From assembly GCA_000002445.1 (NCBI GenBank), contig CP000068.1, positions 96,001 to 160,000 of the forward strand: a DNA stretch of 64,000 nucleotides, read 5' to 3'. The notes under the pieces are model-generated. The model did no database searches and was not told the DNA's origin. It saw only the letters and a program-made list of their open reading frames with translations. The position numbers were made by a program, and so were the translations under genes. Origin of the DNA: Trypanosoma brucei. Lineage: Eukaryota. Below, piece after piece: positions 26,993 to 51,164 of this stretch (positions within the stretch are counted from its first letter, which is position 1; the number at the start of each line of letters is the position of its first letter).

Positions 26993-27444
26993 CCACCTTC
27001 TCTTGTGCCCGAACACGAAGGTACAGATATAGGCATTTGTGTGTATGATTTTGGAATTGAAATCGGTTGCTATAAGTGATATAAGGGTGCTTTTTATATG
27101 TTTTCGTTTCTTGCTTTTTATACCGTTGCTTGTAATGTTTCGGTCTGACCAGTTCCTTGCAGCTCATCTCAAGGTTATTACCCTTTTCCCACATACTACC
27201 GGTTTGAGGTAGGGCCGCATTGGTAGCTGCGGATACCAGTGCTGATGCCTTTTTTCATACGTATTGCTTATTTCATGTGTTAAGGGTATTCATACATTCC
27301 TTGCGCTACTATGAAGGGTGTAATGAAAGACTGCCGTGGAGGTTGTCCATGTTCGGGTGAACTGCAACAAATCCGCTATTGGATACGCATATTATTTCCT
27401 TTGCTCAATCGCGCATATTTTTACTCTTTGGTCGTTTCTATCGA

Positions 27445-27486
27445 TTCCCTTCCCTTTCTTATTTTCTCTTGGATATTTGACTGTAG
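27445..27486 (+). promoter_or_regulatory. polypyrimidine tract plus first downstream AG: predicted spliced-leader trans-splice acceptor for ISG75 copy F. The same motif lies upstream of every ISG75 unit, for example 25286-25327 (+) and 10156-10182 (- strand).
   Basis: TTCCCTTCCCTTTCTTATTTTCTCTT followed by ...GACTGTAG about 100 nt upstream of the ATG. This matches the kinetoplastid poly-Y/AG processing signal. Confidence 0.55.
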
Positions 27487-27582
27487 TTGATTGCATATTT
27501 CTACGGCCAAGGTAACGTGAGGTTGAGACTGACAAGCTGAGGAAGTGGTGATCAGAGGAGGGTGACAGATAAGTTTTAACGG

Positions 27583-29151
27583 ATGTCAACGATGCCTGTT
27601 ACATTACGCACTACTGCAACAGTATTTCTCCTCTGCGGCATATGTGCGCTCGATGTGTCCAAGGCAAGCAACTTACCTGTCGCATATAAGCAGTATGTAA
27701 CAATAAATGGGCGGAAACTTGACGGGCGGGGTGCTTTGACACTGTGTACCATGAAAAAGTTGCTTGACGGTGTTGCTGATAGAGCAGACTTTCTAGAGAG
27801 GCAATCCTGGAAATATTTGAAGACAGTGCAGGAAATTTTTCAGAAAGTGTCAGAGCATGATGATATGAAGGCGGCCCTTGGCGAAAAGAAGCTGCAGGAA
27901 ATGCATAATGTAATGGCCATATCAGCAACCACTGGAACGTACGTTGGTGAAGCGTGGGGAAAGGCGAAGAGGGCTGCAGCGAACTCGAGCAAAGTTCTCA
28001 AGGAGTTGCTAAAATGGCACTGTATAAACAAGGAAGCAATCCGTGATTCGTTTGACCATATGGCTAACGCAAACTGCGATCCCAGTGCGTATAAACATGA
28101 CTATCATCGAAATTTTGGACATGATGACGCTCGCGCATACGTTATATATTGCGAGTACAAGTCTATTCCGGCTGCAAAAACTGATGTGACCTTCTCCAAC
28201 ATGGAGGGGGCAGTCGAGGCATGGAATCGAGCAAAGCCCAAGGCTGATGCAAGGGATGCTGTTGAGTGCAGCAGCGGCCATTCGTCAAGAAGTGCGTCCT
28301 CCTCCGATAAACCATGCACGCTGCTTGAAAGTTGGCGGTGGGACTACGACTTGGCAGCACATTGCATTGAAAAACTTGAAAGATACACCAGAAATGCATT
28401 ACAAACAGTTCATTACGCTCAAAAATTCCTACATAAAGGAAAGGAGTCTCTTGCACAGTATCTGGAATGGAAAAAAGCAGCAGAGGCGCGGGCGGCGGAG
28501 GAGGAGGCGAAACGCCAGGCTGCTGAGAAGGCTGCTGAGGAAGCGAGAAAGGCTTTGGAGGAGGCTGAGGCGAGACGAGTGGCTGCTGAGGAACAGGCGG
28601 AGGCCAGGCGCTTGGAAGCTGAGAAGGCTGAGAAGGCAAAGGAGGCGGGTCAGCCGGTGAGTGAAGAAAAGAAAAAGATGTTGCTGGAGGCTGTTGAGGA
28701 AGCTGAGGCAACTGAAAAGGCTGCAGAAAAGCAGGTGAAAGATTCGAGAAAGGCATTTGAGGAAGCGGAGGAGGAGCGCGTCAAAGCCACCGAAGATGCA
28801 GAAGTTGCGCGGTGGGACAAGGAGGGCGCCGAGGAATCTGAAGAGGAACTGAAGAAGGATGTAGAAAAATTGGCTGAGGAATTGAAAGAGGAGTCGAAAG
28901 AAAGTGGTGAAGAGGACGACGTAAACGCTGACCATGATGATGAGGGCAGCGAGGCCAAGAGTGGCTGGATTGGGACAACGAAAGTGTTAATATTTTTAAT
29001 TCCTTTGCTTTTGCTGTTGCTTGGGTTGCTTGTGTTCTTTGTTATTAGGGGCCGTAGGAAGGCTGAGGTGAAGGATGATATAAACATAGAGGAGGCTAAT
29101 GCTAAAAGCAAAAATACGAAGACCGCAGCAGGTTTCGACAGTGATATTTAA
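27583..29151 (+). CDS. ISG75: ISG75 family, copy F (subtype 1, closest to copy A), 522 aa
   Basis: N-terminus DVSKASNLPVAYKQYVTINGRKLDG and tail ...EEANAKSKNTKTAAGFDSDI as in copy A. Patchwise differences in the mid-ectodomain. Its 3' flank (29152-29379) is the reverse complement of copy A's 3' flank (8248-8474). Confidence 0.85.
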   Translation: MSTMPVTLRTTATVFLLCGICALDVSKASNLPVAYKQYVTINGRKLDGRGALTLCTMKKLLDGVADRADFLERQSWKYLKTVQEIFQKVSEHDDMKAALGEKKLQEMHNVMAISATTGTYVGEAWGKAKRAAANSSKVLKELLKWHCINKEAIRDSFDHMANANCDPSAYKHDYHRNFGHDDARAYVIYCEYKSIPAAKTDVTFSNMEGAVEAWNRAKPKADARDAVECSSGHSSRSASSSDKPCTLLESWRWDYDLAAHCIEKLERYTRNALQTVHYAQKFLHKGKESLAQYLEWKKAAEARAAEEEAKRQAAEKAAEEARKALEEAEARRVAAEEQAEARRLEAEKAEKAKEAGQPVSEEKKKMLLEAVEEAEATEKAAEKQVKDSRKAFEEAEEERVKATEDAEVARWDKEGAEESEEELKKDVEKLAEELKEESKESGEEDDVNADHDDEGSEAKSGWIGTTKVLIFLIPLLLLLLGLLVFFVIRGRRKAEVKDDINIEEANAKSKNTKTAAGFDSDI

Positions 29152-33278: not shown

Positions 33279-34460
33279 TCACTCCCTCAGGTAACTTGGT
33301 GCCTGTTTCCCATTGGTCTCCCCTGCGGCCACATCTTCTTTTGTTCCCGGCCGCCGCTTCCGCAAGAAAAAAATTGTGACAGCGACAATAATGAGGAAAA
33401 GGGGAACGACGGCGCACACCACGTAAATGGCAATACGTGTGCCGCTGGACAACTCGGAGGTTCCTCCTTCGGAAAGTTTATCATCATCCTCAATAACTCC
33501 GTCCTCTTTTTCCGCATCATAATCCTCACCCACTTGTTCCACTTTAAAGTCCTTACCGGGACCAGCGACGGGTTTCAGCGCGGCATCCACATGTTGCACC
33601 TGATCCTTCACTCGGTCAACGGCATTCTGCACCGCCTGACAGGCATCCACGACAGGTTTCATTGCATCAATCGCTTTTTTGTAATGCTCAATCCATCCGC
33701 TCTCATCAACGGTGCATGCAGTTGATGTGAAGTATCCGTCCATTCGACACGCGGTCTCGGCGTATTCATTACGGTGGGTGGGACTCGAAGGCTTTGGTTT
33801 AACATCATTCCACTTTTCCATGGCAGCTCCCATTCCGAGATGATCCAAACCTTTCGGTTGGCCTCTGCACTCGATTTCATAAATGCCTTCACCCACAGAT
33901 TTTGTAGACACACCCCGGCAGTTGTTGTTTTCGTTGTCACTATGCGCGTTACTGGGTTTTTTGGATATGGTCTGGCAATAACTCCTCAACACTTTTCTAA
34001 TGCCGGTGTCTTCCGATTCTCCCACTGCCTTCCTGGCGGGCTCCTTGACTTTTGATATGCCACTTTGAATAACCCCAAGTTGCTTCTCAACTTCCGTCTT
34101 GGCGCTGCCGACAACCGCTAGCGCCTCGTCAAGTTCTTTCTTTGCTTTTTCTACCGCCGCCAGGTCTTTTGATCCCTTCCCGTCTGACAGTTTCTCAAGT
34201 CCCTCGCGCTCCTTCTTTATTAAATCAGTTGCGTTATCGATGTACGTAATCTTGTGTTTCGTATGATTTACGATATTTTTTTCACCCTCCCCCACTGTAT
34301 TCGCAAGAGTGTACAAACTGCATAATATTTTCGCACTATTCGCATCGAAGTGTCCGTCTGCTGGTTGCTGGTTCTCGGCAGAGGCAAATGATACCAAAGT
34401 GAACCAAAACGGCACCAGGAGTTGAAGCGACATCTTCACACGCATGAAATACATATGCAT
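33279..34460 (-). CDS. ISG-fold (ISG65/ISG64/ISG75-superfamily-like) type-I membrane glycoprotein, 393 aa by the longest ORF. The likely true start is the M of MSLQLLVPFWFTLVSFASA at 34433.
   Basis: Signal peptide; N-glycosylation sequons; motifs AMEKWNDVKPKP and ACTVDESGWIEHY are recognisably homologous to ISG75 ALEIWNQVKPKP and PCTVLENWLWNY; C-terminal TM IAIYVVCAVVPLFLIIVAVTIFFL followed by the basic tail RKRRPGTKEDVAAGETNGKQAPSYLRE. Confidence 0.65.
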   Translation of the reverse strand: MHMYFMRVKMSLQLLVPFWFTLVSFASAENQQPADGHFDANSAKILCSLYTLANTVGEGEKNIVNHTKHKITYIDNATDLIKKEREGLEKLSDGKGSKDLAAVEKAKKELDEALAVVGSAKTEVEKQLGVIQSGISKVKEPARKAVGESEDTGIRKVLRSYCQTISKKPSNAHSDNENNNCRGVSTKSVGEGIYEIECRGQPKGLDHLGMGAAMEKWNDVKPKPSSPTHRNEYAETACRMDGYFTSTACTVDESGWIEHYKKAIDAMKPVVDACQAVQNAVDRVKDQVQHVDAALKPVAGPGKDFKVEQVGEDYDAEKEDGVIEDDDKLSEGGTSELSSGTRIAIYVVCAVVPLFLIIVAVTIFFLRKRRPGTKEDVAAGETNGKQAPSYLRE

Positions 34461-35025
34461 ATATGAATATATGAAAATATGAACTGATATACGAATATAT
34501 TACAAACGAGGAGTGTAAAATCACTTCACTCTTGCCGAATTTTTTTCTTTAAAAAAAAAAAAAAAAAAGAGTGCTCCCCACTGCAGACGCAAGAAGACAA
34601 TATCCGATACTGTAGCTATTGTGTCTATTTTGATTCCTGTGTGTATGCAAAGAAAACAAAAATGGACAGTGGGACAAAATAATTTTCAATCCCAGCAAGT
34701 TGCCTACAGAGAAGTTACGGAGCTAAAGCAAACAGCAGTGCCAATAATGACGATAACAACAATAAATGAATTCAAATAACCGCTGGATAAAAGCGTCGTA
34801 TTCGCTCAATAACACTCTTTACATTACTTCAACATGTTGCTGCGTTTGGACTGGAAGTGCACTGAGGAGGGGGAAAAAAAAAAAGAAAGTAACGCATGCA
34901 ACGACTGCATCTTTTCCTTTTCAGTATTGATAAAGGCGAGGAAACGGGAAGGAGGAAGAGGCGGTGTTCGTGAATCAGCGAAACCGAATTGAATATCAAA
35001 AACAAGAAAAAAAAATGGAGAAACG

Positions 35026-36147
35026 CTAACAATCCTCTTCTTCCTCAGCGACTGCGGAAACGGGAGCGTAAGCACTCTGCACCTTCAAGCTGTTCTTTAT
35101 GCAGCGAAATAGCAAGAAACCGAGAACCAAAAAGAGTAACGAAGCAGTCACCACAATTATGCACGTGACAATGTCCTTCGATATTATTCCGTCTATAGAC
35201 GATTTCAATGACTTCTTCTCATGGTGCTTTCCAGTCGGGGTAGAGGATCGCACCAATTCCTTCAACGCATTCTTGTGCTTTTTCAACTCCTCAGCAGCGT
35301 TATGAACACTTTTTGTTGCCTCCTCCAACTTCTTAAGTTCATGTAGGGAAGAATTATAATCTCCCGTCCATTCCTCCTCAGGCACCGTACACGGACCCTC
35401 TGAAGCATATCCGTGACTTATGCAACTCGCATTCCATTGCTTGCTCGTATGTTTAACAGCTGCAAGCCCCGGTTTTGCACCATCCCAAGCGTTTATTGCA
35501 TTCGACATGGCCTCATATGTGACGTTAGCAGCAGTCACATTATCAGAACCTCCAATACTCTTACAATCAATTTTGAAGGCACCGGCTCCAGCAGCCGCAG
35601 CAATGCCATCGTCGCAGTTATTATTCACATTATGACTCTTCTTACCTTCCTTTGCACCAGTAATTGTTGTATTGCAGTATATCGTCAGTACCTTATTCAT
35701 TCCTTTGCTCTCAGAATCCCCCACTGCCTTTTTTGCGTGTTCCACGGCTTTGCTGGAGGCGTTTGTAATAATTTCATGTTGCTTCTTCACTTCTTCATCA
35801 GCTTTTGCGCTGGCGTTCAACACCGCATCGAGATGCCTCTTTATCGCATCCCCCACCGTTGCGTTCTTTGCTTTTATGGAGTCAACTAACTTACCAACCT
35901 TCTGCCGTGTCCTGTTCAAAGCAGAGGATGTGTTCTGAATAAACTTAATCTTCTGTGCTGTGGTATTTAAAATACCATCCGCAACACTTTGCATGGATCC
36001 CGCAAGGCCATACATGATGCATAATGCCCTAGCTCCTTCTTTATTAAATCTCTTGAGAGCAGGGCGCTGGCCTTTCTCAGCCGCAGCAAATGCAACGGCA
36101 GTAATTACTGATGCCAAAATGTAGGAGTGACGCAATCTTGCGCCCAT
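35026..36147 (-). CDS. ISG-fold type-I membrane glycoprotein, 373 aa. It is a mosaic paralog of 37164-38297.
   Basis: Signal peptide MGARLRHSYILASVITAVAFAAAE; motifs AMSNAINAWDGAKPG and GPCTVPEEEWTGDYNSSLHELKKLEE resemble the ISG family; TM IVTCIIVVTASLLFLVLGFLLF with the acidic tail ...AVAEEEEDC. Many sequons in residues 61-125. Confidence 0.65.
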   Translation of the reverse strand: MGARLRHSYILASVITAVAFAAAEKGQRPALKRFNKEGARALCIMYGLAGSMQSVADGILNTTAQKIKFIQNTSSALNRTRQKVGKLVDSIKAKNATVGDAIKRHLDAVLNASAKADEEVKKQHEIITNASSKAVEHAKKAVGDSESKGMNKVLTIYCNTTITGAKEGKKSHNVNNNCDDGIAAAAGAGAFKIDCKSIGGSDNVTAANVTYEAMSNAINAWDGAKPGLAAVKHTSKQWNASCISHGYASEGPCTVPEEEWTGDYNSSLHELKKLEEATKSVHNAAEELKKHKNALKELVRSSTPTGKHHEKKSLKSSIDGIISKDIVTCIIVVTASLLFLVLGFLLFRCIKNSLKVQSAYAPVSAVAEEEEDC

Positions 36148-37163
36148 ACCTTTACTACTAGTTTCAACGACACACTAAGCCTGAAATGCAATAACCACAA
36201 CACATCCACATTCATTTTTTTTATACGTACAAATACGTACAAATATATAAACAAGGGGAAAACATTGTATAAAACAGTAATTAGGAGTAACAAAGATGCA
36301 ACCTAATGAAAGCAATGCACGAAATCAAACGATGCACCAAATGGCACTGTTGAAACACCGCTTTAATCATAAAGTCACGAACCGTATGTTTTCAGTGCAT
36401 GGTGACATGGTGAGTAGACAGGGGAACACTAAGCCAAATGAAAATTTTATGGATTACCACGACACCAACACTGGTCGCAACGGCCACGAAATGAGGAGAG
36501 GGATGCGGGGGGGAGGGGAAAAAAAAAAAAGAAAAAAGAAAAATTAGCAAAACAAAAGATAAAGGGAAGCAACGAAATGATCGAAGCTGGTTATAAGAAG
36601 GAATCCAAAAGAAATCCAACGAAAGAAAGAAATGAAACAAACCAAAACATCTGGCGTGAGTAACATGTTGTGTGAGCATGTCTGTCAGTTTACCCACTAA
36701 TATACAGTAATAAGAAAGATAACCCTCCAAATCCGCCTCAAGAACAAAATCCCTAAAGAAAGGAACGCCTCAATTCAAGTTGCGAAGACACAAAATTGTG
36801 TGAGTGTATTCACCGCACTGTAAACCCACTCCAACAAAAACAACGTAATTCTAACGAAATGACAACGAGTGGACAAAGCGTATAAAATAGGTATGAAAAT
36901 AACAGCAACTATAATCGTAAAGCATAGCAAGACCAACGCATTACGCATTACGAACCCAAGCACACTAACGACAACCTCGTCAAAACATACACATCCAACC
37001 GCTCCACCGCATCGGAAAGGAGAAAGGAGAAAGTCGGCAGACTCATGCACAGGTGACGGAAAATCTTCCGTTGCAAAGAAAAAAAATGAGAGAGAGCGAA
37101 GTCGAGCAAACGAAACACAAAAATAAACAAAAAAAGAACACAAACATTGTAACGGCACGACGA

Positions 37164-38297
37164 CTATATCATGAGTCGAGACCCTGACCTCTTGGTCCCA
37201 AAAGCGCTACCTCTGTTAAACCCGCGACGATTCATTAGCAAAAGTAATACACTAGTTGCGGGCACTATAGCCACAAAGCAAATGGCAACGGCAACAAGAT
37301 AACCAACAATGTCCGTGCCGCGATCCGAACTGTCGGGTGCCGGGACCAATGGTTCCGTAAGAGAATCATTACGATTTAAGTTGGAGGATCGCATCAGCCG
37401 CTGCACCACATCACCCGTCTGCGTTTTCATACCCTCAGCAGCGTTATGAACACTTTTTGTTGCCTCCTCCAACTTCTTAAGTTCATGTAGGGAAGAATTA
37501 TAATCTCCCGTCCATTCCTCCTCAGGCACCGTACACGGACCCTCTGAAGCATATCCGTGACTTATGCAACTCGCATTCCATTGCTTGCTCGTATGTTTAA
37601 CAGCTGCAAGCCCCGGTTTTGCACCATCCCAAGCGTTTATTGCATTCGACATGGCCTCATATGTGACGTTAGCAGCAGTCACATTATCAGAACCTCCAAT
37701 ACTCTTACAATCAATTCTGAAGGCACCGGCTCCAGCAGCCGCAGCAATGCCATCGTCGCAGTTATTATTCACATTATGACTCTTCTTACCTTCCTTTGCA
37801 CCAGTAATTGTTGTATTGCAGTATATCGTCAGTACCTTATTCATTCCTTTGCTCTCAGAATCCCCCACTGCCTTTTTTGCGTGTTCCACGGCTTTGCGGG
37901 AAGCGCCAGCAATAATTTCATGTTGCTCCTTTAGCTTTCTTTGGCCCCAGTCGAGAACTTCAAGTGCATCCTCTAGCTCCTTCTTTGCCCTGCTAAACTT
38001 TGCCGCATCTTCTATTGTCTCACCTTCCTCACGCTCCATCTGAACAACCTCCTCATGCCTAGCTTTAATCAGAACGAATGCTTCTTCAATATAAGCGATT
38101 TTATCGTGCATACTCTTTAAAATACCATCCGCAACACTTTGCATGGATCCCGCAAGGCCATACATGATGCATAATGCCCTAGCTCCTTCTTTATTAAATC
38201 TCTTGAGAGCAGGGCGCTGGCCTTTCTCAGCCGCAGCAAATGCAACGGCAGTAATTACTGATGCCAAAATGTAGGAGTGACGCAATCTTGCGCCCAT
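37164..38297 (-). CDS. ISG-fold type-I membrane protein, 377 aa. It is a mosaic paralog of 35026-36147.
   Basis: Identical to the 373 aa paralog over residues 1-60 and about 126-290, and in 150 bp of 5' flank. It has a different charged, sequon-free module at residues 61-125 and an unrelated TM (IVGYLVAVAICFVAIVPATSVLLLL) plus basic tail (MNRRGFNRGSAFGTKRSGSRLMI). Confidence 0.65.
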   Translation of the reverse strand: MGARLRHSYILASVITAVAFAAAEKGQRPALKRFNKEGARALCIMYGLAGSMQSVADGILKSMHDKIAYIEEAFVLIKARHEEVVQMEREEGETIEDAAKFSRAKKELEDALEVLDWGQRKLKEQHEIIAGASRKAVEHAKKAVGDSESKGMNKVLTIYCNTTITGAKEGKKSHNVNNNCDDGIAAAAGAGAFRIDCKSIGGSDNVTAANVTYEAMSNAINAWDGAKPGLAAVKHTSKQWNASCISHGYASEGPCTVPEEEWTGDYNSSLHELKKLEEATKSVHNAAEGMKTQTGDVVQRLMRSSNLNRNDSLTEPLVPAPDSSDRGTDIVGYLVAVAICFVAIVPATSVLLLLMNRRGFNRGSAFGTKRSGSRLMI

Positions 38298-38962: not shown

Positions 38963-41317
38963 TCATTTCCTTACATCCAGTGTGTCATCAGTGATATCCA
39001 CAGTGTATGGGTTATATCCCGCCGGCATCTGTGGTAATCCCGCACCCGGTCGCATGGCAGCGTTTTGGGCTGCCCTCCGCTGCCGCAATACGAAGAACCC
39101 AACCAAACCAAGCACGATAAGTAACGCTGGGACCACTACAGCCGCAATCCATGCCAGGTTGCGACCACCCGATTTACCGCCTTGACCATCCCCATGATCT
39201 CCATTATCCTCATCCTCGTCTTCCAAGACAGCATCAAATGTACTTCTGTGCTTTACTGCAAGTAGCGCCTTCACATCAGCTACGCTTAGCTCATGGCTGT
39301 ACAAAAGCATGTTGAATACGGTAACACTCAGGTCGCCAGTTGCCTCACCCTTTCCGATCACTCGCTCGTTGGCTCCAACATATATCTCGTGTATCTCTGC
39401 CGACTGCGACAACGGCACAATACTGCCCTGACCATCCCCTACACGATTCCCGTCAATGTACGTATGGGCAACGCCGCCTCGCACGGTCAAGACAACCTGG
39501 TAGGTTTTCCCCTCTTCCAGAGCGAGTGTTTTGGCGCCAGCTGTCGTACCACTCAATTGGGTCCACGCCTTTTCGTCGTACCAGATACCCACGTCTGCAA
39601 TTAAGCCGGATTTGTTCCTCACGCCCACTCCAAGAAGTGGAGTGGGGTTCTTTGGTGCCTTATGGACGGCCACGCTCATCACGACTGTCAGCCCGTTGTC
39701 AATCAAATGGTACACTTTATTCTCATTTTTGCCAGATACGGGAAATACAACATGTGCGGCGCGTGTGCCCAAAGTGAAACCGGTGGTGACCCTCTTTACA
39801 GGGCCTTGTAGCGCACCATCCATGCCAAGGTATCCGTCACGCCAATGCGTGCGGTTGGCCACTTCAGACCAAAACCCAACGAGGCCCACCGTTGGGTCAA
39901 ACTTTGGCGCTGACGTGCTCTCCTCGCCCGTAGTGCCATAAAGCGCCATCACACTCCCGTCCACCTTCCTCCACAAACCCACCACTGCCTTCAGTTCATG
40001 CACACGGTCGGTGAGGTCGGTAAAGAAAATGCTTTTCAACTGGCTGAAACCCTCCTCATGCAGGGAGTACAGCCCACTCTCAGTGTGCAGGAGGGCGCTA
40101 AAAGATAACATGGATAAATGACCAGAGGAAATCGCCCCGAGGCAATGCGTCCGCTTGCTATCCGTCACCCAAAGGAGGAGCGGCCTCAATCCCGCATTCC
40201 CTGAATTGAAGAAGGCGCGGTAAGCAAATAGGATCACATCCGACCCATCCACCTTCATGTTCACGAAGTCACCTCGGTCGTCGTCATCGGAGTGATACTG
40301 GAAATTGGACAGTGCGTGCCTTTCACCCTCCGTAGCGTCAGTCCACGTCATCCCCACGTCTACGGATCGATACATCTTGTTTTTCGTCTGGTGTGCAACT
40401 ACAAGCAGCAATTCCTTCTTCCACACAAGCAGGCTGGGCTCCGTGCAATCGTCGATGTCCAGTTTAGCCGGGGTGAAGCTCCATGACTCACTCTCGTGCT
40501 TATAACGCGCAATAACGCATGTCTTAGCCCCACTCTCAGCGGACGCGACGAGAGGGAAAAGTATGGTGTCGCCCACAACAGCACCCTTTCCACCACTCTC
40601 GAAGAATTCCTTCCATGAGTGCTCCAATAGCGGCCTCTTGAACGTATCAGTCAGCGATGAAGGCTTATTCCACTTCACAACCTTGCCATCTTCCGCACCG
40701 CGGCCGCCGATAGTGCCCACGAAAAGCTTCACCTCCAAGTCGAACGCACCCTCTTGAGGTTCTACATCCTTCGCCTTGTTGCTGCTGAGTGAAAGAAGGA
40801 AAATCTTATCCTTCAGTACTATTGCCCTGGGGCCGTATTGAGCGTAGCGATGATCGGCCACCGGCTCATTCACGAAAACATTCTCAGTCTTCCATTTTTT
40901 CTCTGACATCCAACCCGCCGCCTGTGCGCTCTGGTGAGTCTCGCCAAGTGCAATAGTCTTTAGCCACACTCCGGCGTATCCGGCAGTCCACGCGTTATAT
41001 CGTGCTTCAGCGAGGGCAACAACACTCCCACCCACCGCCACGAGTGAATTACCTTCGAATAAACCGTGTTTCACATCATGACTCGAGTCACTGTGCGACA
41101 ACAAACTTTCTCTATTCCACGGTTTGAATAATTCCACCCTCCGCTTCTCAACTCCTGCAGGTTGGGAAGATGAGCCATTACTGCACACGGGGAGCAAAAG
41201 GACTGAAGCAACCAATAGTAGTAATGGTGTGTGCATCCTTTTGTAACTTTTCTCCCGTGTAGGGAAGTCATCTTTCATCCATACTCTCATGCTGGTACCT
41301 GGCTCCTGCAAATGCAC
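38963..41317 (-). CDS. trans-sialidase/sialidase-like protein (784 aa by the longest ORF). The probable start is at 41236, the M of the signal peptide MHTPLLLLVASVLLLPVCS.
   Basis: Asp-box SVDVGMTW (S-x-D-x-G-x-T-W); a beta-propeller-like N-terminal half and a C-terminal lectin-like region (LLYSHELSVADVKALLAVKH) typical of trypanosome trans-sialidases. The C-terminus has a TM helix (IAAVVVPALLIVLGLVGFFVL) followed by a 45 aa cytoplasmic tail, not a short GPI signal. Confidence 0.7.
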   Translation of the reverse strand: MHLQEPGTSMRVWMKDDFPTREKSYKRMHTPLLLLVASVLLLPVCSNGSSSQPAGVEKRRVELFKPWNRESLLSHSDSSHDVKHGLFEGNSLVAVGGSVVALAEARYNAWTAGYAGVWLKTIALGETHQSAQAAGWMSEKKWKTENVFVNEPVADHRYAQYGPRAIVLKDKIFLLSLSSNKAKDVEPQEGAFDLEVKLFVGTIGGRGAEDGKVVKWNKPSSLTDTFKRPLLEHSWKEFFESGGKGAVVGDTILFPLVASAESGAKTCVIARYKHESESWSFTPAKLDIDDCTEPSLLVWKKELLLVVAHQTKNKMYRSVDVGMTWTDATEGERHALSNFQYHSDDDDRGDFVNMKVDGSDVILFAYRAFFNSGNAGLRPLLLWVTDSKRTHCLGAISSGHLSMLSFSALLHTESGLYSLHEEGFSQLKSIFFTDLTDRVHELKAVVGLWRKVDGSVMALYGTTGEESTSAPKFDPTVGLVGFWSEVANRTHWRDGYLGMDGALQGPVKRVTTGFTLGTRAAHVVFPVSGKNENKVYHLIDNGLTVVMSVAVHKAPKNPTPLLGVGVRNKSGLIADVGIWYDEKAWTQLSGTTAGAKTLALEEGKTYQVVLTVRGGVAHTYIDGNRVGDGQGSIVPLSQSAEIHEIYVGANERVIGKGEATGDLSVTVFNMLLYSHELSVADVKALLAVKHRSTFDAVLEDEDEDNGDHGDGQGGKSGGRNLAWIAAVVVPALLIVLGLVGFFVLRQRRAAQNAAMRPGAGLPQMPAGYNPYTVDITDDTLDVRK

Positions 41318-41708: not shown

Positions 41709-42372
41709 CTGGAATAGAAGAGGTTAAGAAACACGCGTTGCAGTGCTCATCCCAATTCGTGTTAAAGCTACATGGGGGGAAAAAATGATATAATAAATGC
41801 AAACATGAAGAATGTCACTAACACTATTCTTGAGAGCGCTGTTGATTTTACTACTGGAAATCTTCTTCAAGAGTGGCAAGTTGATTTGCATTGATGTTTT
41901 TATACCTCCAATAACAACACCTTAAAGGTAGAACCCCTATTGTTTCCCTCCTTCGCGTCGCAGCAGAGTAACAAAAATGGTTTTGTCCATCAGACATATT
42001 ACGGAAAAAAGTGAAAGCAAATACATTCCATTTTGTTTCTTTTCAAACACAAAAAAAAAACAGATGGAAAAAAAAATACCAATACCAATATGATTCCGGA
42101 CACTTTTGCAAGTTATTGAGGTTGTCAATATCCTCATCTCGCAAAAAATTCAGGCATTCCCAAGTGTTAACCTTATGAGCCGAAATCTTCACATTATTTT
42201 TAAATAAAAAAAAATAAAAATAAAAAAAACAGCACGGACAGGGGCCCCCAACACATGTGTCCCCCACCCCCGGGCCCTCCCAGCCCTCTTTCCTTCAAAT
42301 AGAAACGACAACAAACCTCTTCACACATTCGCCTCCTTCGCAATGCTATGGAACACGAGGGGAAAAAAACAG

Positions 42373-42444
42373 CATCCGTGACAGGATTCGAACCTGCAAC
42401 CCTCTGATCCGTAGTCAGATGCTCTTCCATTGAGCCACACGGAC
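42373..42444 (-). tRNA. tRNA-Arg(ACG): tRNA-Arg, anticodon ACG, 72 nt
   Basis: Manual cloverleaf on the reverse complement: acceptor GTCCGTG/CACGGAT (G1-U72 wobble), D-arm GCTC-AATGGAA-GAGC, anticodon arm TCTGA-CTACGGA-TCAGA (U33, anticodon ACG), 5 nt variable loop, T-arm GCAGG-TTCGAAT-CCTGT, discriminator G. Confidence 0.8.
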
Positions 42445-43450: not shown

Positions 43451-44941
43451 TTAGTTCCAATTCCGCACGATCTTTCCGTCCCAGTTCAACTTCTCCCCCT
43501 TCTGCATGGCGTAGTAGCGATGCGTCTTCCAGCGACGCCAAGGTGAACCCGACTTACCCCAATGCGGGTTTGCTTCCCAGTATTTCTCAATACGCTCCTG
43601 CAACAGCGGCGTGAAGTGGCGGGCCAAACCCTGCACGGGCCATGCCGCTGCGGTTGCCAACGCACAGATGGTTCGCCCCTCCAGTTGTTTAGACACATCG
43701 AGCATGGTTCCAACCTCTTCCATACGTGCGTTACCGTGGACGAAGCGTTGCATCATCTTTTCGAGCCATGGGCTTCCTTCACGGCATGGCGTACACTGGC
43801 CACATGACTCATGGGCATAAAACATAGATAAGCGATGGATAGCCGCGATAAGGTCGGTAGATTTATCCATCACTATCACCGCTGCGGTGCCGAGGCCTGT
43901 TTGCGCCTCCTTCAGCGCATCGAAATCCATGAGGACGTTATCACAAATGCTCTTTGGAATAAGAGGACAAGAAGAGCCACCAGGAATGACAGCGAGGAGA
44001 TTGTCCCATCCACCCCGCACGCCACCAGCATGACGCTCAATGAGGTCCCGCAAAGGAATACTCATCTCCTCCTCTACTGTACAGGGCCGGTTGACGTGAC
44101 CGCAAATGCAGAACAGTTTTACCCCAGCATTGTTGCGTCGACCAAATGAATTAAACCACGACGGGCCGCGCCGGAGGATTGTTGGTGACACGGACACGGT
44201 CTCCACATTTGTCACAGTGGTGGGACACCCATAAAGACCGACATTGGCCGGAAAAGGGGGTTTAAGACGTGGCTTTCCTGGTCCACCTTCAATGCTTGAA
44301 ATCATCGCAGTTTCCTCCCCACAGATGTACGCTCCCGCACCGCAGTAAGTGTATAAATCAAAATCGTAACCGCTTCCGCATGCATTGCGGCCCAAGTAAC
44401 CCCGCGCATACGCCTCTTTAATTGCCTGATCCACAGCCCTCCACTCATTGTAAAACTCGCCTCGTATGTAAATGTAACCGTAACGCGCCCGCATGGCAAA
44501 ACCTGCAATGAGAGCCCCCTCTACCAATTTGTGTGGTTCATGCCGCATAATCTCTCGATCCTTACACGTCCCTGGTTCCGATTCATCTCCATTAACGACG
44601 ATGTAACTTGGGCGGCCGTCAGGTTTGGATTTTGGCATGAAGGACCATTTGAGTCCCGATGGGAAACCGGCTCCGCCGCGGCCACGGAGTCCACTGGCCT
44701 TAATTTCATTTATAACCCAGTCGTGTCCCTTCAACAGCAAATCGCGGGTACGATACCAATCCCCTCGTCGCTCAGCACTATCAATATCTGTGCCAAAATC
44801 CTGATAAAGATTAACAAAAATGCGGTCCTGATCCTTCAATCCACCGTGTACCCGCTGCTCCTGCTGAGTTGGTGGTGGTTGAGAAGCTGCTGCCTGAAGC
44901 AAAGACCCCGTAGCGGAAAGAAAACCCACACGCCGGAGCAT
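43451..44941 (-). CDS. NADH dehydrogenase (ubiquinone) flavoprotein 1, the 51 kDa NuoF/NDUFV1 subunit of complex I, with a mitochondrial presequence
   Basis: Signature blocks [15 protein letters not shown] (NADH/FMN site) and [12 protein letters not shown] (4Fe-4S ligands). Overall co-linearity with NuoF. N-terminus [14 protein letters not shown] resembles a matrix-targeting peptide. Confidence 0.9.
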
Positions 44942-46106: not shown

Positions 46107-46142
<36 letters not shown>

Positions 46143-46421
46143 TCAAATATGCATTTACGTACAAGAAAAATGCACACATGTCCGTGTGTGATGCTTTCCA
46201 GTGGGTGAACAATCATCAAATATGTCTACTCAAATTTTACAAGAAAAAAAATCCTGCAGATGGGCACAAATCAGGCAGCCGTGCACCTTTCCAGTAGAAT
46301 ATCATAAGGCAGCAGCAACACATGCGGTAATTAAAGATGTATTCGAAAAATAAAATAAAAATAAAATAAGCTTTATTCCCTCGCCAAACATCATCTCGCA
46401 CCATATCAAGTTGCATTTCCC

Positions 46422-46754
46422 TCATCCTCCTTCATTACCATCACTGCTATTGTTGTTGTTGTTATTATTATTATTATTAATATTATTATTGTTGTGATGA
46501 GTCCAGTTGGGGAGACACCCCGCGAGATGTTGCGCCTGGCAGCTGTGAAATTGTTCCGTAGCTTCCACACAATTTGGAGCCCAAAAACCCTCCACTTCAA
46601 TGCAACGCTGCGCAATGGCCCTCAACTCAACACATGGCGTAATTTCCTCCTGTTCTGCAAGCCGACGCTTAAAACCCTCCGGAACTTCCTCCCAAGGCAT
46701 TTGCCGGCCATTACCCACCGCATAAGTCGTACCGCCACCCTTCAATACAACCAT
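46422..46754 (-). CDS. small twin-Cx9C (CHCH-domain) protein, candidate mitochondrial intermembrane-space protein, 110 aa, with an Asn-repeat C-terminus
   Basis: Two exact C-x9-C pairs, CVELRAIAQRC and CVEATEQFHSC, embedded in helical-looking sequence (PWEEVPEGFKRRLAEQEE...). Same strand as the flanking genes. The C-terminal poly-N tail is encoded by an (ATT/GTT)n microsatellite on the + strand (46440-46492). The ORF sits in an otherwise empty 4.5 kb gap. Confidence 0.45.
   Translation of the reverse strand: MVVLKGGGTTYAVGNGRQMPWEEVPEGFKRRLAEQEEITPCVELRAIAQRCIEVEGFWAPNCVEATEQFHSCQAQHLAGCLPNWTHHNNNNINNNNNNNNNNSSDGNEGG
46440..46492. repeat. (ATT/GTT)n trinucleotide microsatellite that encodes the poly-Asn tail of the CHCH ORF on the - strand
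   Basis: TATTGTTGTTGTTGTTATTATTATTATTATTAATATTATTATTGTTGTG. Confidence 0.9.
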
Positions 46755-49421
46755 AATAACTTCTTTTATTTTTATTTTTATTTTTATTTTATTTTGCCGT
46801 TCTTCTTCTTCCTCTTCCTCCTCACAAGCACTGCCGATATGAAATTAAAAGTATCTAATTGATCAACTAATTAATTAAAATAACTAATGAACTAATGAAC
46901 TAATACGTTGGGGTTAATTGTGGTGAAATGGCCAGAATGAAACAGAGTGATGAGGGTTTAATTAATAAATAAACAAACCCAAACACCCGTACACTTCAGT
47001 TAATGAAGTTATTTCTTCCCTTCAGTCCTTTATTGGACTGAAGCCGTGTGTAACTTAATAACTTGCATATATGACACAACACACAGCAAAAAGAAAAAAA
47101 AGGAAGGAGAAAAAAAGTAAAGAAAAGTAAAGACTTGCGTTACAACACACAACAGCGCAATCATGAAGCACTCCAGCGTCAAAAAAATAAGGTGGAGTTA
47201 CAAATCTTATTTTGTAACCGTCTTTTTTTCTTTAAATAATAACAATAATAATAATTTGTTTATGTATTATTGTTGTTGTTGTTGTTTCTTTATTATTATT
47301 ATTATTTTCCTTTCCTTCATTTGACAGACCTGATACGGCCGAATTGGCTGGCCGCCGGGTGTAGAAAGTAAACCATTTTGGGACATAAACATAAAATTAA
47401 TTAATTAATTAGAAGAAGAGGAGGAGGAAAAAAAAAAAGAGGCATAACGAAAGTGACATTTACTCACTTTGCTGCTCACTCAAAATAAAACAAAACAAAA
47501 AAGAAAAGAAAAGAAAAGAGTTGGGGCACACCGCATTTCCTCATTAATAAAATATTCCTTTGGATTTGTTTTTTTTCTTTTTCTTTTCTTCTCTTCTTTT
47601 GTGTGCGCTGGCGAAGTTCCGCTGATGGGGGAGAAAAGAGAGGAAAAAAAAAAAGAGAAAAAGAAAAACAGGGATTTGTTCCCAAAGAAAAATAAATTAA
47701 ATAAACATGTGAATGGAAGGAGGGAGAAACAAAAAAAACAAATAAATAAATAATAATAATAAAAAGAAAGAAAGAGGGGCCACTGAGACAATTTGCTGCC
47801 ACAAAGAGGAATCCCTCATATCCACTCCCTTTTATTTCCTTCCATTACTAAATCTTTTTTTTTTCGCTTCGTTTCGTTTTTGTTTTTGTTTCGTTTCGTT
47901 TTTGTTGTTAAAAAAAAAAAAAAAGAGGAACGTGTCAGAAATGAGTAAATGATTTAAGGGAATCTTAAATAAATAAATGCATGGGAAATGTTGAGGATGA
48001 TTTGATACCGACGACATATCGCCCATTTATTTTTTGTTGTCGTTTGCTTTTCTTTTTCTTTTTCTTTTTTTCTTTTTTTTTTCAAGAAAAAAAAACTGCG
48101 CGCGATATTCCCTTTATTTATTCATTCATTCATTCTCACTTTAATTCGTACCTATCCGTATGATGATAATAATAATAATAATAACAACATTAATTATTAT
48201 ATTGAAATGCTATACCTTGAAATAGTAGTAGGTAATGATAATAAAATAGATTTTTTTTAAAAAATAAAAACACAACACACAACACACAACACGCCACCAA
48301 ATCATATGAAACGTAATAAAATATCAACAGCAGAAATAATAATAATGTTTGTTGCCGTTTCATATCGCATAATATATTTTACGCATGGACCTGCAGCAGG
48401 AGGTTTAAATGAGGCATTTTGGGAGATAATTCGGGCTGAAAGTCTCGAAAAAATGAAGAATAAAAAAATAGAATAAAAAAAACCGTCAAAAGGTGAGTTG
48501 TGAAGCATTGCAATGCAGCGAAGACGCAGCGATATAAATAAATATAAATATATGATAAATAAAATGATAATGATATAAACAAATCATTTTATTTTACCTT
48601 ATTTTAATATCTTCCTCTTTCCCCTCCAGTGTGCAGTTACGCATGTCCATTTTCTACCATAAACACAATAAACAACACATCTTTTATTTATTTATTTTTT
48701 TCTTTTCTTTTCTTTTCCTTTAAAATTTTTTTAAAAAAAAAAAATTATGTTTAGGCTGCAGGTCATCCCACCCACCCATTTCAAACACTAATTCGTTTTT
48801 GGTTTTGTTTTTTTTTTTAATTTTCCCTCCTCTTTATTTCCTCTGCTTGCGTTGTTAAAATCATACAACCTCTTAATTATTTTCAGCACTCTGACAAAAA
48901 CCAACAGAGGTGCGAAATAAATATTTTTCTCCCTCACGCGTCTCCTCTATTTTTTTTTTCACAAATAAAATAAAAGAAATTCATCAGGTCACTTCACCAT
49001 CTACAAATTATTAATTATTTTTCCTTTGATTTGCTTCGTTATTGACGTTACTATCACACTTTTTTTTTCTTTTTCCTTTTTGAACTACAGCCAACTGGGT
49101 TGTTCATTCTCCGAAACAAAAAAAAACAATAAAAATAAATAAAAATAAAGTGGCTAAATTATAAACAAACACTTTCACCACAATGTCACCCACTTGCAAA
49201 CTTATACTCACACACTCACAATCTCACATACACAGAAACATATAAATATATAAATATATATAATATTTCTTTTTAAAATTTCTCAGCTTCCCATTCCAGA
49301 AATGCCGGTAAACATCTCCTCCTCCTCCTCTACTTTATTCTCTTTTTTTTTCTTCTTTTTTTCTTCTTTTTTTCTTCCTTCACCACATGCACTTCTTTTT
49401 ATTATACTTTCCCCTCATCTC

Positions 49422-51164
49422 TCACATAATCTCAACAAGTTTTGTCTTCCGTGCCGCCAAAACAATACCGGACCGCTTGGAACGCCATAATGTTGCGTAA
49501 CACACAAGCGCTGATAATGTCATGGAAACACTCATCACAACACACACAAACGCATAACTCCCATTATTACGAAGTTGAATAGTTGCTTGCATGGGAGGTG
49601 CCACAAAACCACCCACCACACCTGCGAGAAATACAGCACCAAAATAAAAACCCAAATTAGGTCCATACAAATGCGTAGCGATAAGAGTTGGCATCACGGC
49701 AAACATACCCGCCATGCAGAAACCAATGATGCAAAGCAACAACGCAAAGGCAACGTAACTGCGGCCAAGGGCGAGAAGGCCACAACCGATACCACCAACA
49801 GTAGCACAGAAAACATATGCAAATTCAGCAGTAACTAATGAGGCGAGCCAACCAACAAGTACGGAACCAACAACTTGAAAGACACCATAAAAAGTGAAGA
49901 GGGTGGCGGCAACATCAGTTGGAATGGGCGGTACACCTGCATAAACAGTGCCTGGTTTACCCATAGACGAAATGTAAGGCACGGCTGCGTAAATGAGCGA
50001 GTAAAAAGCCCAACTGTATATGAACCAGCAAAGAAAGTTACCCATGAAAGGGAGAGTAAACATAGAGAGGAATAGTTCCCATGGTGTGAGCTTGTGGGTG
50101 TGGAGACTGCGTATTACCTGTGGTTCGTCTGCATCCATACTTGTATCCATATCAACATCAATAGCAGATGCAAAGGTGTTGTTCCTTTGACTTTGTTCAG
50201 TAACGTCCAAACCCTCACCATCATTCCCATTTTGCTGATTCGTGCCCACACCCCTCCCGTTAGGTGGAACCTTTGAGGTGTTGGTATGGCTGCCATTTTT
50301 CCTGCCCATTTCCCTCACGTCTTCTTTACCTTCATTGTGTCCATTATTCGCTGCTCCTTCTCCCCCCACAGTTGCCGGTTCATTACTTCTTCTGACCAAA
50401 CTTCCATTACCGGATTTATTTCCTTCCCGGGTTTCATCATCAGCGCTGCTGTCGTCTCTTTTGGGTTCACGGCGGCGAGCGGAAAGGGCGGTTGCGAGCA
50501 CTCCAATCGCACAAAATATCGACATAAGTTGAAAAGCCTTACGCCAGCCATATGCAACAACCCATTTCCCTGCTAATGGTGGAATAATGGCACTTCCAAT
50601 ACCTCCACCAGCAAAGTTAATTCCCATAGCCAGTCCCTGATAACGATTGAACCAAGAACTAGTTGCAGCAGCCCCAGGTGATAACATACATGCCGTACCA
50701 ATAGATGCAAAAAGGCAGTAAGTAAAAGTTACAACATAAATGTTCGCGGCGAGGGTTGAACTGATCCACAAACCAGTGAAGAGCAAAATGGTGGAAAGCG
50801 CCATCATGAACCGCGGCGGGAGCCGATCGACACAAAATCCTGCGAGAACACCAAAGGCAGGTGAAAGCCCCAACGAAACGGAATTTCCAAGACTAATTGC
50901 CGTTATGGAGGGAAACCCAAGTGACGGATCATTGTGCATATCCTCTGAGAAAATGGAATAACTGTTGTCAATACCATATGACATCAGTTGCATCAACAAC
51001 CCCGAAAGGGCCACGAGGTAACCGATTGGGTGGTCGGCGGGTTTACGGGTGAAACTTGGAAGCATAACTTTTTGCTTTTCTTCTTCTTTTCCGTATATAT
51101 TTAATATATATATATATATATACTTTCTGCTTATGCTCGTATTGGTATTCCGTTTCTCACCCAC
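49422..51164 (-). CDS. major facilitator superfamily-type transporter, roughly 12 TM, with a hydrophilic central loop of about 130 aa. The longest ORF is 580 aa; the likely real start is at 51065 (MLPSFTRKPADHP...).
   Basis: Alternating hydrophobic helices with Gly-rich MFS-like motifs (GINFAGGGIGSAIIPPLAG, FYFGAVFLAGVVGGFVAPP). A charged, N/G/S-rich central loop between two 6-helix halves. The first 33 codons of the longest ORF read through a (TA)n tract and are probably not coding. Confidence 0.7.
   Translation of the reverse strand: MGEKRNTNTSISRKYIYIYILNIYGKEEEKQKVMLPSFTRKPADHPIGYLVALSGLLMQLMSYGIDNSYSIFSEDMHNDPSLGFPSITAISLGNSVSLGLSPAFGVLAGFCVDRLPPRFMMALSTILLFTGLWISSTLAANIYVVTFTYCLFASIGTACMLSPGAAATSSWFNRYQGLAMGINFAGGGIGSAIIPPLAGKWVVAYGWRKAFQLMSIFCAIGVLATALSARRREPKRDDSSADDETREGNKSGNGSLVRRSNEPATVGGEGAANNGHNEGKEDVREMGRKNGSHTNTSKVPPNGRGVGTNQQNGNDGEGLDVTEQSQRNNTFASAIDVDMDTSMDADEPQVIRSLHTHKLTPWELFLSMFTLPFMGNFLCWFIYSWAFYSLIYAAVPYISSMGKPGTVYAGVPPIPTDVAATLFTFYGVFQVVGSVLVGWLASLVTAEFAYVFCATVGGIGCGLLALGRSYVAFALLLCIIGFCMAGMFAVMPTLIATHLYGPNLGFYFGAVFLAGVVGGFVAPPMQATIQLRNNGSYAFVCVVMSVSMTLSALVCYATLWRSKRSGIVLAARKTKLVEIM

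What the first reader, a model, noticed from the sequence alone, without database searches (positions are those of the whole stretch)
46422..46754. Candidate overlooked gene: twin-Cx9C (CHCH) mini-protein with a microsatellite-encoded poly-Asn tail, next to the complex-I NDUFV1 gene
A 110 aa ORF on the same strand as all flanking genes carries two perfectly spaced C-x9-C pairs (CVELRAIAQRC … CVEATEQFHSC) within helical-looking sequence. This is the hallmark of Mia40-imported mitochondrial intermembrane-space proteins, many of which are complex I/IV assembly factors or subunits. It lies in a 4.5 kb gap that would otherwise be gene-free. Its C-terminus runs into an (AAT/AAC)n repeat giving NNNNINNNNNNNNNN. 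Repeat length could therefore vary between alleles, or the true stop may differ.
Basis: partly seen in the sequence, partly recalled or inferred. Interest (0 to 1): 0.5.

Follow-up and report, generated by a model that had tools for sequence, protein, structure and literature searches.

The report
Known trypanosome twin-Cx9C mini-protein gene
The 110-codon ORF is a real, conserved and expressed gene for a small cysteine-stapled protein that probably sits in the mitochondrion, but it is already annotated in Trypanosoma brucei as Tb927.5.460 and was listed as a twin-Cx9C protein in 2017, so it is not an overlooked gene.

Summary
A 110-aa ORF at 46422..46754 (minus strand) has two Cx9C pairs (C41–C51, C62–C72) and a poly-Asn tail encoded by a trinucleotide repeat. 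It sits in the 4.5 kb gap between NDUFV1 and an MFS transporter gene.

The gene is not overlooked. It is 100% identical to T. brucei TREU927 XP_844720.1/Q57VW7 (Tb927.5.460). Peikert et al. 2017 listed it as a MIA-substrate-like twin-Cx9C protein and detected it with two peptides. PolyA+ mRNA tags are also published.

It belongs to a small family restricted to Euglenozoa (Trypanosoma species, unnamed metagenomic sequences of kinetoplastid type, Diplonema). The four Cys, G16 and P25 are invariant. The order MFS–CHCH–NDUFV1 is kept in T. cruzi and T. vivax but not in the unnamed metagenomic relatives, so the link to complex I is not supported by position.

AlphaFold gives a confident helix-loop-helix hairpin. 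The best remote match is Euglena complex I subunit NDUFB7 (profile E 1.7e-5; hhalign 86.6%). However, trypanosomatids have a separate canonical NDUFB7 (Tb927.9.11660).

Kinetoplastids lack Mia40, so import would depend on Erv1. The poly-Asn tail is specific to Trypanozoon and varies in length. Function is untested.

The parts
46422..46754 (-). Complete CDS (110 aa plus TGA stop) of Tb927.5.460, annotated as 'hypothetical protein, conserved' / CHCH domain-containing protein
   Evidence: ORF list. 100% identity over 100% of the length to XP_844720.1/Q57VW7. The gene ID comes from the Q57VW7 to Tb927.5.460 mapping in the PMC5436138 supplement.
46668..46754 (-). Conserved N-terminal segment (aa 1-29: MVVLKGGGTTYAVGNGRQMPWEEVPEGFK). 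Family motif: MVxxKGGGxxY...G...W-E-x-V-P-x-W-F-K
   Evidence: G16 and P25 are invariant and G8 and F28 nearly invariant in the 17-sequence alignment A3. All orthologues start at the same Met. AlphaFold predicts a low-confidence beta-hairpin here. This segment also aligns to VDWEKIPNRFK of Euglena NDUFB7.
46602..46634 (-). First Cx9C motif (C41-C51), in predicted helix 39-55
   Evidence: Both Cys are invariant in A3.
46539..46571 (-). Second Cx9C motif (C62-C72), in predicted helix 60-80
   Evidence: Both Cys are invariant in A3.
46449..46493 (-). Trinucleotide microsatellite (AAT/AAC)n encoding N88-N91, I92, N93-N102. Specific to Trypanozoon and polymorphic in length.
   Evidence: Sequence. 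TRF period-3 array. Strain variants of 110, 111 and 105 aa. The tail is absent in T. congolense, T. vivax and T. cruzi.
47062..47127 (-). Candidate trans-splicing signal: a 40-nt polypyrimidine tract (47127..47088 on the coding strand) followed by the first AG at 47063/47062, 309 nt upstream of the ATG
   Evidence: Python scan. This is a sequence-level prediction only; no mapped spliced-leader site was consulted.
43451..44941 (-). Context: downstream neighbour NDUFV1 (Tb927.5.450)
   Evidence: Pfam Complex1_51K, SLBB and NADH_4Fe-4S. Gene ID from PMC8312217.
49422..51164 (-). Context: upstream neighbour, MFS transporter
   Evidence: Pfam MFS_1, E 2.4e-35. The order MFS-CHCH-NDUFV1 is the same in T. 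cruzi and T. vivax.

Best explanation
The ORF is the already annotated T. brucei gene Tb927.5.460. It encodes a small soluble protein with three parts. The first is a conserved N-terminal segment (aa 1-29). [quoted passage not shown] The third is a disordered poly-Asn tail, found only in Trypanozoon and encoded by a slippage-prone trinucleotide repeat. Shown here: the gene is real, under purifying selection, conserved across Euglenozoa, transcribed and translated. Inferred: like other twin-Cx9C proteins, it is made in the cytosol and crosses the outer membrane. It is then trapped in the mitochondrial intermembrane space by oxidative folding, forming disulfides C41-C72 and C51-C62. In kinetoplastids this folding must rely on Erv1 (with Mic20 or another partner), not Mia40. 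Favoured but weakly supported next step: the stapled hairpin and the conserved N-terminal segment dock on the intermembrane-space face of a respiratory-chain complex as a small accessory or assembly subunit. The closest model is NDUFB7 on the distal membrane arm of complex I.
For: Identity to XP_844720.1/Q57VW7. Tb927.5.460 is listed as MIA-substrate-like with Cx9C at (41-51) and (62-72) in the PMC5436138 supplement. It was identified in procyclic whole-cell extracts with 2 unique peptides, 23.6% coverage and Q 0.0002. There were 163 polyA+ tags in procyclic mRNA, 10.6-fold enrichment in the TbZFP3 RIP, and a stumpy/slender ratio of 2.59. The exhaustive profile search found 15 hits at E<=1e-3 among 1.84 billion representatives, 14 of them small proteins with the same layout. 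In the 17-sequence alignment, which spans 24-73% identity to the query, the four Cys, G16 and P25 are invariant. Comparing T. brucei with T. cruzi, pN is 0.29 and pS is 0.78 (saturated). Synteny is kept in T. cruzi and T. vivax. In the AlphaFold model, helices 39-55 and 60-80 have pLDDT above 90. The top sequence-profile hits in the PDB are all CHCH proteins: Euglena NDUFB7 at 1.7e-5, mS37 at 4e-4, and other NDUFB7 chains at 1-2e-3. hhalign against Euglena NDUFB7 gives 86.6% probability and E 4.5e-6, and the alignment includes the pre-CHCH WExxPxxFK motif. Kinetoplastids lack Mia40 (PMC5760468 and PMC8557897).
Confidence: 0.7

Rival explanations
1. The family is an NDUFB7 paralogue specific to Euglenozoa and a so far unrecognised subunit or assembly factor of complex I.
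For: The best PDB profile hit is Euglena gracilis NDUFB7 (8iuf_B7), at E 1.7e-5. hhalign gives 86.6% probability, and the alignment extends upstream of the CHCH core (Y..G..WExxPxxFK). Pfam NDUF_B7 is the family matched by the most members, 6 of 17. The mRNA is higher in stumpy forms, as expected for a mitochondrial respiratory gene.
Against: The NDUF_B7 matches are far below significance (best E 0.0032), and the T. brucei protein has no Pfam hit at all. It lacks the RDYC-H motif seen in the aligned NDUFB7 chains. mS37 and CMC4 score only about 5-8 bits lower, so the signal may be generic to CHCH proteins. The protein is not in the MS lists of trypanosomatid complex I bands, whereas Tb927.9.11660 is. 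Position next to NDUFV1 is not kept outside Trypanosoma. I could not obtain the Tb927.9.11660 sequence to test paralogy directly.
Confidence: 0.2
2. It is the diverged Euglenozoan counterpart of another known twin-Cx9C factor, for example a complex IV assembly factor of the COA4/CMC type, or a CMC4- or mS37-like protein.
For: Individual family members give weak hits to Pfam CHCH (2.2e-4), CMC4 (3.5e-4), CX9C (8e-4) and COX17 (5.6e-3). PDB profile hits to mS37/CHCHD1 (4.4e-4) and p8MTCP1/CMC4 (3.7e-3) share the same 10-residue loop. Coa4, Cmc2 and Coa6 were reported as not retrieved in the diplonemid mitoproteome (PMC12699882), so such slots are unfilled in Euglenozoa.
Against: None of these matches reaches a curated threshold. 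Diplonema already has separately assigned mS37, NDUFB7, Cox17, Cox19, Cox23, Cmc1, Pet191 and Mdm35. Its family member DIPPA_20224 does not occur anywhere in that paper's main text, so it is not among the listed proteins. No T. brucei chain in the PDB matches the protein, so it is not in the solved mitoribosome or ATP synthase models. The N-terminus is acidic and Gly-rich and does not look like a presequence, which argues against a matrix or ribosomal fate.
Confidence: 0.2
3. The ORF is a chance open reading frame, or a non-mitochondrial protein whose Cys spacing is coincidental.
For: No direct localisation data were found. The T. brucei protein has no Pfam hit.
Against: Orthologues with invariant Cys occur from Trypanosoma to Diplonema. 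Non-synonymous change is well below saturated synonymous change. Peptides and polyA+ mRNA have been detected. The GC content is coding-like inside AT-rich flanks. The hairpin model is confident.
Confidence: 0.04

Closest known systems
Tb927.5.460 (XP_844720.1, UniProt Q57VW7), T. brucei 'hypothetical protein, conserved' / CHCH domain-containing protein
   Same: Identical sequence over all 110 residues. Same Cx9C positions as tabulated in Peikert et al. 2017.
   Different: Nothing: this is the same gene. Its function is still uncharacterised in the literature I could search.
NDUFB7 (B18) subunit of complex I, Pfam PF05676; Euglena gracilis chain 8iuf_B7
   Same: Twin Cx9C hairpin with a 9-10 residue loop. 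A similar pre-CHCH stretch (WE-x-[IV]-P-x-x-FK). Profile E 1.7e-5 and hhalign probability 86.6%.
   Different: It lacks the RDYC-H signature and an 11-residue insert before the first Cys. It falls below the Pfam threshold. Trypanosomatids have a separate 225-aa NDUFB7, Tb927.9.11660, found by MS in complex I.
mS37 / CHCHD1 / Mrp10 (mitoribosomal CHCH protein)
   Same: Cx9C-x10-Cx9C spacing, with Gly and Pro in the inter-helix loop as in yeast Mrp10. Profile E 4e-4 to 9e-3.
   Different: There is no presequence-like N-terminus. It matches no chain of any solved T. brucei structure. Diplonema has a distinct assigned mS37.
Generic twin-Cx9C substrates of the Mia40/Erv1 relay (Cox17, Cox19, Cmc1, CMC4 and others)
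   Same: Small size, two Cx9C motifs in a helix-loop-helix, and no transmembrane segment.
   Different: The host lineage has Erv1 but no Mia40 (PMC5760468 and PMC8557897). Import of this protein has not been tested.

Membership tests
Twin-Cx9C / CHCH-fold proteins | Two Cx9C motifs, each in an alpha-helix of a helix-loop-helix hairpin | tested here: met
   Motifs are at 41-51 and 62-72. AlphaFold helices 39-55 and 60-80 have pLDDT above 90.
Twin-Cx9C / CHCH-fold proteins | The four Cys are conserved among orthologues | tested here: met
   C41, C51, C62 and C72 are invariant in 17 sequences spanning 24-73% identity to the query. The fifth Cys (C80) is Arg in other Trypanozoon strains.
Twin-Cx9C / CHCH-fold proteins | Match to a curated CHCH-type HMM (PF06747, PF16860 and similar) above threshold | tested here: not met
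   The T. brucei protein gives 0 Pfam families at E<=1. Only some orthologues give weak hits: CHCH at 2.2e-4 and CX9C at 8e-4. TriTrypDB/InterPro and UniRef do label it CHCH or cysteine alpha-hairpin.
Twin-Cx9C / CHCH-fold proteins | Intermembrane-space location with two structural disulfides; abundance dependent on Erv1 | not testable with these tools
   No record was found in the stored part of the ERV1-RNAi table. It was quantified once after ATOM40 RNAi, with a ratio of 0.71, and is not in the importome.
Mia40 substrates | The organism has a Mia40/CHCHD4 receptor-oxidoreductase | tested here: not met
   Literature only: kinetoplastids lack Mia40 (PMC5760468 and PMC8557897).
NDUFB7 (PF05676) | Match to the NDUF_B7 HMM above the gathering score | tested here: not met
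   The T. brucei protein gives none. Six of 17 members match, with best E 0.0032.
NDUFB7 (PF05676) | Conserved R-D-[YM]-C-x-H signature at the first Cys | tested here: not met
   T. brucei has EITPCVE. The aligned Euglena, Chlamydomonas and 9iho chains have RDYC/RDRC.
NDUFB7 (PF05676) | Significant profile similarity to a structurally verified NDUFB7 | tested here: inconclusive
   8iuf_B7 scores E 1.7e-5 and hhalign gives 86.6%. However, mS37 and CMC4 score only a few bits less.
NDUFB7 (PF05676) | Physical presence in complex I | tested here: inconclusive
   It is absent from the complex I MS tables of PMC8312217, where Tb927.9.11660 is present. No kinetoplastid complex I structure matched in the PDB.
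mS37 / CHCHD1 | Component of the mitoribosomal small subunit | tested here: not met
   No T. brucei chain in the PDB matches the protein. A yeast mS37 fragment retrieves no kinetoplastid chain.

The most novel reading that the evidence does not exclude
Tb927.5.460 and its relatives are a CHCH family specific to Euglenozoa, derived from NDUFB7. Its conserved N-terminal segment (MVxxKGGG...WExVPxWFK) would dock it as an unrecognised accessory subunit or assembly factor on the intermembrane-space face of the unusually large kinetoplastid complex I, or of another respiratory complex.
Probability: 0.2. Interest if true: 0.35.

Novelty: already known. Interest (0 to 1): 0.12.

Why it matters
It matters little as a discovery. 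The gene has been in the T. brucei annotation since the 2005 genome and was flagged as a twin-Cx9C candidate substrate of the intermembrane-space import pathway in 2017. Three modest points remain useful. First, it is one of the uncharacterised CHCH proteins in a lineage that imports such proteins without Mia40, so it could serve as a small model substrate for the Erv1/Mic20 question. Second, its family is restricted to Euglenozoa and has a distinctive conserved N-terminal motif and a weak resemblance to NDUFB7, which gives a testable lead for the subunit inventory of the kinetoplastid respiratory chain. Third, its poly-Asn microsatellite is a simple strain-typing marker.

Tried and rejected
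1. Pfam scan of the T. brucei protein found nothing at E<=1.
2. phmmer of the single protein against the PDB gave only noise and poly-Asn linker hits.
3. Foldseek against the PDB gave no match with E<=1e-3, although CHCH proteins were among the top hits.
5. The afdb50 library was not available.
6. Searching with the Euglena NDUFB7 fragment, in the hope of retrieving the kinetoplastid NDUFB7 (Tb927.9.11660), returned only the Euglena chain itself. Paralogy with the canonical NDUFB7 therefore could not be tested.
7. Literature searches by accessions and alternative gene IDs found nothing.
8. The ID Tb927.5.460 occurs in the main text of only one paper as that gene, the TbZFP3 RIP table. The second hit was Tb927.5.4600.
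9. The TrypTag supplements held do not contain the ID.
10. The sub-mitochondrial map paper (Cell Rep 2023) and Basu et al. 2013 are not held.
11. No supplements are held for the 2026 MICOS microprotein paper.
12. I rejected the idea that adjacency to NDUFV1 implies function. Kinetoplastid gene order is not operon-like, and the adjacency is lost outside Trypanosoma.
13. I rejected TbTim15 as the identity; that protein is Tb927.2.4445 and has four Cx9C motifs.

Full report
**1. Observation**

The window carries an ATG-to-TGA ORF of 110 codons at 46422..46754 on the minus strand. It translates to MVVLKGGGTTYAVGNGRQMPWEEVPEGFKRRLAEQEEITPCVELRAIAQRCIEVEGFWAPNCVEATEQFHSCQAQHLAGCLPNWTHHNNNNINNNNNNNNNNSSDGNEGG.

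Two Cx9C motifs lie at residues 41-51 and 62-72. The tail N88-N102, interrupted by I92, is encoded by an (AAT/AAC)n repeat. TRF reports this as a period-3 array at 46462..46490 on the plus strand.

All large ORFs from 33279 to 63936 are on the minus strand. The downstream neighbour at 43451..44941 is NDUFV1 and the upstream neighbour at 49422..51164 is an MFS transporter. The gap between them is 4,480 bp.

The pattern is not a chance one. Among 168 ATG-started ORFs of at least 60 aa in the window, this is the only one with a clean twin Cx9C. Its conserved core has 53.7% GC, like NDUFV1 (53.1%), whereas the 1 kb flanks have 31-36%.

**2. Identity**

The protein is 100% identical over its full length to T. 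brucei brucei TREU927 XP_844720.1 / AAZ11161.1 / UniProt Q57VW7. NCBI names it 'hypothetical protein, conserved' and UniRef names it 'CHCH domain-containing protein'. It lies on a 1.6 Mb chromosome record.

The supplement of Peikert et al. 2017 (PMC5436138) maps Q57VW7 to Tb927.5.460 (old ID Tb05.29K2.500, 12.193 kDa). NDUFV1 is Tb927.5.450. The rest of the window fits T. brucei chromosome 5: ISG75 arrays, ISG65-like genes, a trans-sialidase and DRC7.

The gene is therefore not overlooked. Moreover, Peikert et al. listed it twice. Their Supplementary Data 9a lists it as a 'MIA substrate-like' protein found by domain search. Their Supplementary Data 9b lists it as a twin-Cx9C protein with match locations (41-51) and (62-72).

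**3. Evidence that it is expressed**

In the same study the protein was identified in procyclic whole-cell extracts with two unique peptides, 23.6% coverage and Q 0.0002. It was quantified in one replicate after ATOM40 RNAi with a ratio of 0.71. That was too little data for inclusion in the importome. It is in neither their mitochondrial nor their non-mitochondrial reference set.

A coverage of 23.6% of 110 residues is 26 residues. This would fit, for example, QMPWEEVPEGFK plus LAEQEEITPCVELR. That is my inference; the peptides themselves are not given.

PolyA+ digital-tag sequencing counted 163 tags in procyclic mRNA and 1,727 in the TbZFP3 RIP (10.6-fold). The stumpy/slender ratio was 2.59 (PMC3326296).

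On the coding strand, the nearest polypyrimidine tract upstream of the ATG is 47127..47088 (40 nt). The first AG follows at 47063/47062, 309 nt upstream of the ATG. This is a plausible trans-splice acceptor, but it is only a sequence prediction.

**4. Conservation**

A word-indexed search found orthologues in T. congolense, T. vivax and an unnamed sample.

An exhaustive profile search of 1.84 billion representatives found only 15 hits at E<=1e-3. Fourteen are small proteins of 78-132 aa with the same layout, and the last is a spurious repeat protein. Named members are T. cruzi XP_808899.1 and Diplonema papillatum DIPPA_20224. The rest are unnamed metagenomic or SRA-assembled sequences. Their loci have the one-strand gene arrangement typical of kinetoplastids.

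In the 17-sequence alignment, which spans 24-73% identity to the query, the four Cys, G16 and P25 are invariant. G8, F28 and G56 are nearly invariant. All members start at the same Met, with MV..(K/R)GGG..Y.

Between T. brucei and T. cruzi, non-synonymous difference is 0.29 per site while synonymous sites are saturated at 0.78. This indicates purifying selection on the protein.

The gene order UPF0020 methyltransferase – MFS – CHCH – NDUFV1 is the same in T. brucei, T. cruzi and T. vivax. In the unnamed metagenomic relatives and in Diplonema, the neighbours are unrelated genes. The position next to NDUFV1 is thus inherited synteny within Trypanosoma and says nothing about function.

**5. The tail**

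The poly-Asn tract is present only in Trypanozoon. T. congolense has an unrelated short tail, and T. vivax and T. cruzi end soon after the second helix.

Cluster members differ in repeat length. TREU927, and the sequence shared by T. b. gambiense DAL972 and T. equiperdum, have 110 aa. A T. b. equiperdum genome has one more Asn, giving 111 aa. An SRA-assembled variant has 105 aa, with fewer Asn and a different end.

The stop codon agrees between annotated genomes. The fifth Cys (C80) is Arg in the other strains and is not part of the motif.

**6. Structure and family**

AlphaFold2 with the family alignment gives mean pLDDT 79.9. Helices 39-55 and 60-80 have pLDDT above 90, which places each Cx9C in one arm of an antiparallel hairpin. 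The N-terminal 13 residues form a low-confidence beta-hairpin. In this fold the expected disulfides are C41-C72 and C51-C62; this rests on established knowledge of CHCH proteins.

Structure searches could not discriminate such a small fold. Sequence profiles did better.

- **PDB profile search.** Against PDB sequences, the family profile hits only CHCH proteins at the top. Euglena gracilis complex I NDUFB7 (8iuf_B7) scores E 1.7e-5. Mouse CHCHD1/mS37 scores 4.4e-4. Two other NDUFB7 chains score 1-2e-3, and p8MTCP1/CMC4 scores 3.7e-3.
- **hhalign.** Against the Euglena chain, hhalign gives 86.6% probability and E 4.5e-6. The alignment extends upstream of the CHCH core: EGVDWEKIPNRFKRR in Euglena against RQMPWEEVPEGFKRR in T. 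brucei.
- **Pfam.** Scans of all members give only sub-threshold hits. NDUF_B7 is the family matched by the most members (6 of 17, best E 0.0032). The T. brucei protein itself matches nothing.

**7. Is it NDUFB7?**

It is not the canonical one. Trypanosomatid NDUFB7 is Tb927.9.11660, whose 225-aa orthologues were found by MS in complex I bands. Diplonema likewise has a 254-aa NDUFB7, and it also has separately assigned mS37, NDUFS5, NDUFA8, Cox17, Cox19, Cox23, Cmc1, Pet191 and Mdm35. DIPPA_20224 does not occur anywhere in that paper's main text, so it is none of these.

The 97-residue Euglena chain was built from a genomic contig fragment with its full length given as 'NA' (PMC10884005 supplement). 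It probably corresponds to the long canonical protein.

The family also lacks the RDYC-H signature of the aligned NDUFB7 chains. It could be an old NDUFB7 paralogue, or the similarity could be generic to CHCH proteins. I could not obtain Tb927.9.11660 to decide.

The protein matches no chain of any solved structure. It is therefore not part of the solved T. brucei mitoribosome or ATP synthase models.

**8. Mechanism**

Shown:
- It is a real, conserved, expressed small protein with a twin-Cx9C hairpin.

Inferred from what is established for this protein class:
- It is imported post-translationally.
- It is retained in the intermembrane space by formation of two disulfides.

Kinetoplastids have Erv1 but no Mia40, and Mic20 is a candidate replacement (PMC5760468, PMC8557897 and the TbTim15 preprint).

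The strongly conserved N-terminal segment is not part of the CHCH fold and is modelled with low confidence on its own. This suggests a docking element that becomes ordered on a partner.

My favoured specific reading is a small accessory or assembly subunit on the intermembrane-space face of a respiratory complex, most like NDUFB7 on complex I. I give this about 0.2. It rests only on the weak profile similarity and on higher mRNA in stumpy forms.

**9. Verdict**

The 'CHCH mini-protein' reading is supported. 'Overlooked gene' is wrong, 'Mia40' is wrong for this lineage, and the NDUFV1 adjacency is not informative. The finding is already known, and interest is low.

Noticed in passing
window 42372..42444 (-): A tRNA-Arg(ACG) gene lies between the trans-sialidase gene and NDUFV1, inside an otherwise same-strand run of protein-coding genes.
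   Followed up: no
window 8475..16561 (-) and 25424..29151 (+): Six ISG75-type genes of about 522-552 aa (Pfam ISG65-75) form two arrays in opposite orientation: four on the minus strand and two on the plus strand. This implies a divergent strand-switch region around 16.6-25.4 kb and a convergent one around 29-33 kb.
   Followed up: partly
window 33279..38297 (-): Three tandem genes of 373-393 aa sit just upstream of a trans-sialidase gene (38963..41317). The two that were scanned give strong ISG65-75 Pfam matches (E 1e-88 to 1e-93).
   Followed up: partly
window 46346..46369 and 46764..46795: AT-rich pentamer/hexamer repeats flank the ORF in inverted orientation: (AAAAT)n downstream of the stop and (TTTTAT)n just upstream of the ATG, as read on the plus strand. 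A (CA)n(TA)n microsatellite lies at about 46108..46145. These are probably just low-complexity intergenic sequence.
   Followed up: no
P0029 (Euglena gracilis NDUFB7, PDB 8iuf chain B7): The deposited 97-residue chain has no initiator Met. It was built from a genomic contig fragment with its full length listed as NA. Diplonemid and trypanosomatid NDUFB7 are 225-254 aa, so the Euglena protein is probably longer than modelled.
   Followed up: partly
P0011, P0012 (unnamed metagenomic/SRA family members): Some relatives carry poly-Gln C-terminal tails instead of poly-Asn. Homopolymer tails therefore seem to have arisen more than once on this small protein.
   Followed up: no
P0023 (T. cruzi XP_808907.1, 158 aa): One T. 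cruzi CL Brener haplotype annotates a 158-aa version in the same 90% cluster as the 95-aa protein. This is probably an over-extended start call.
   Followed up: no
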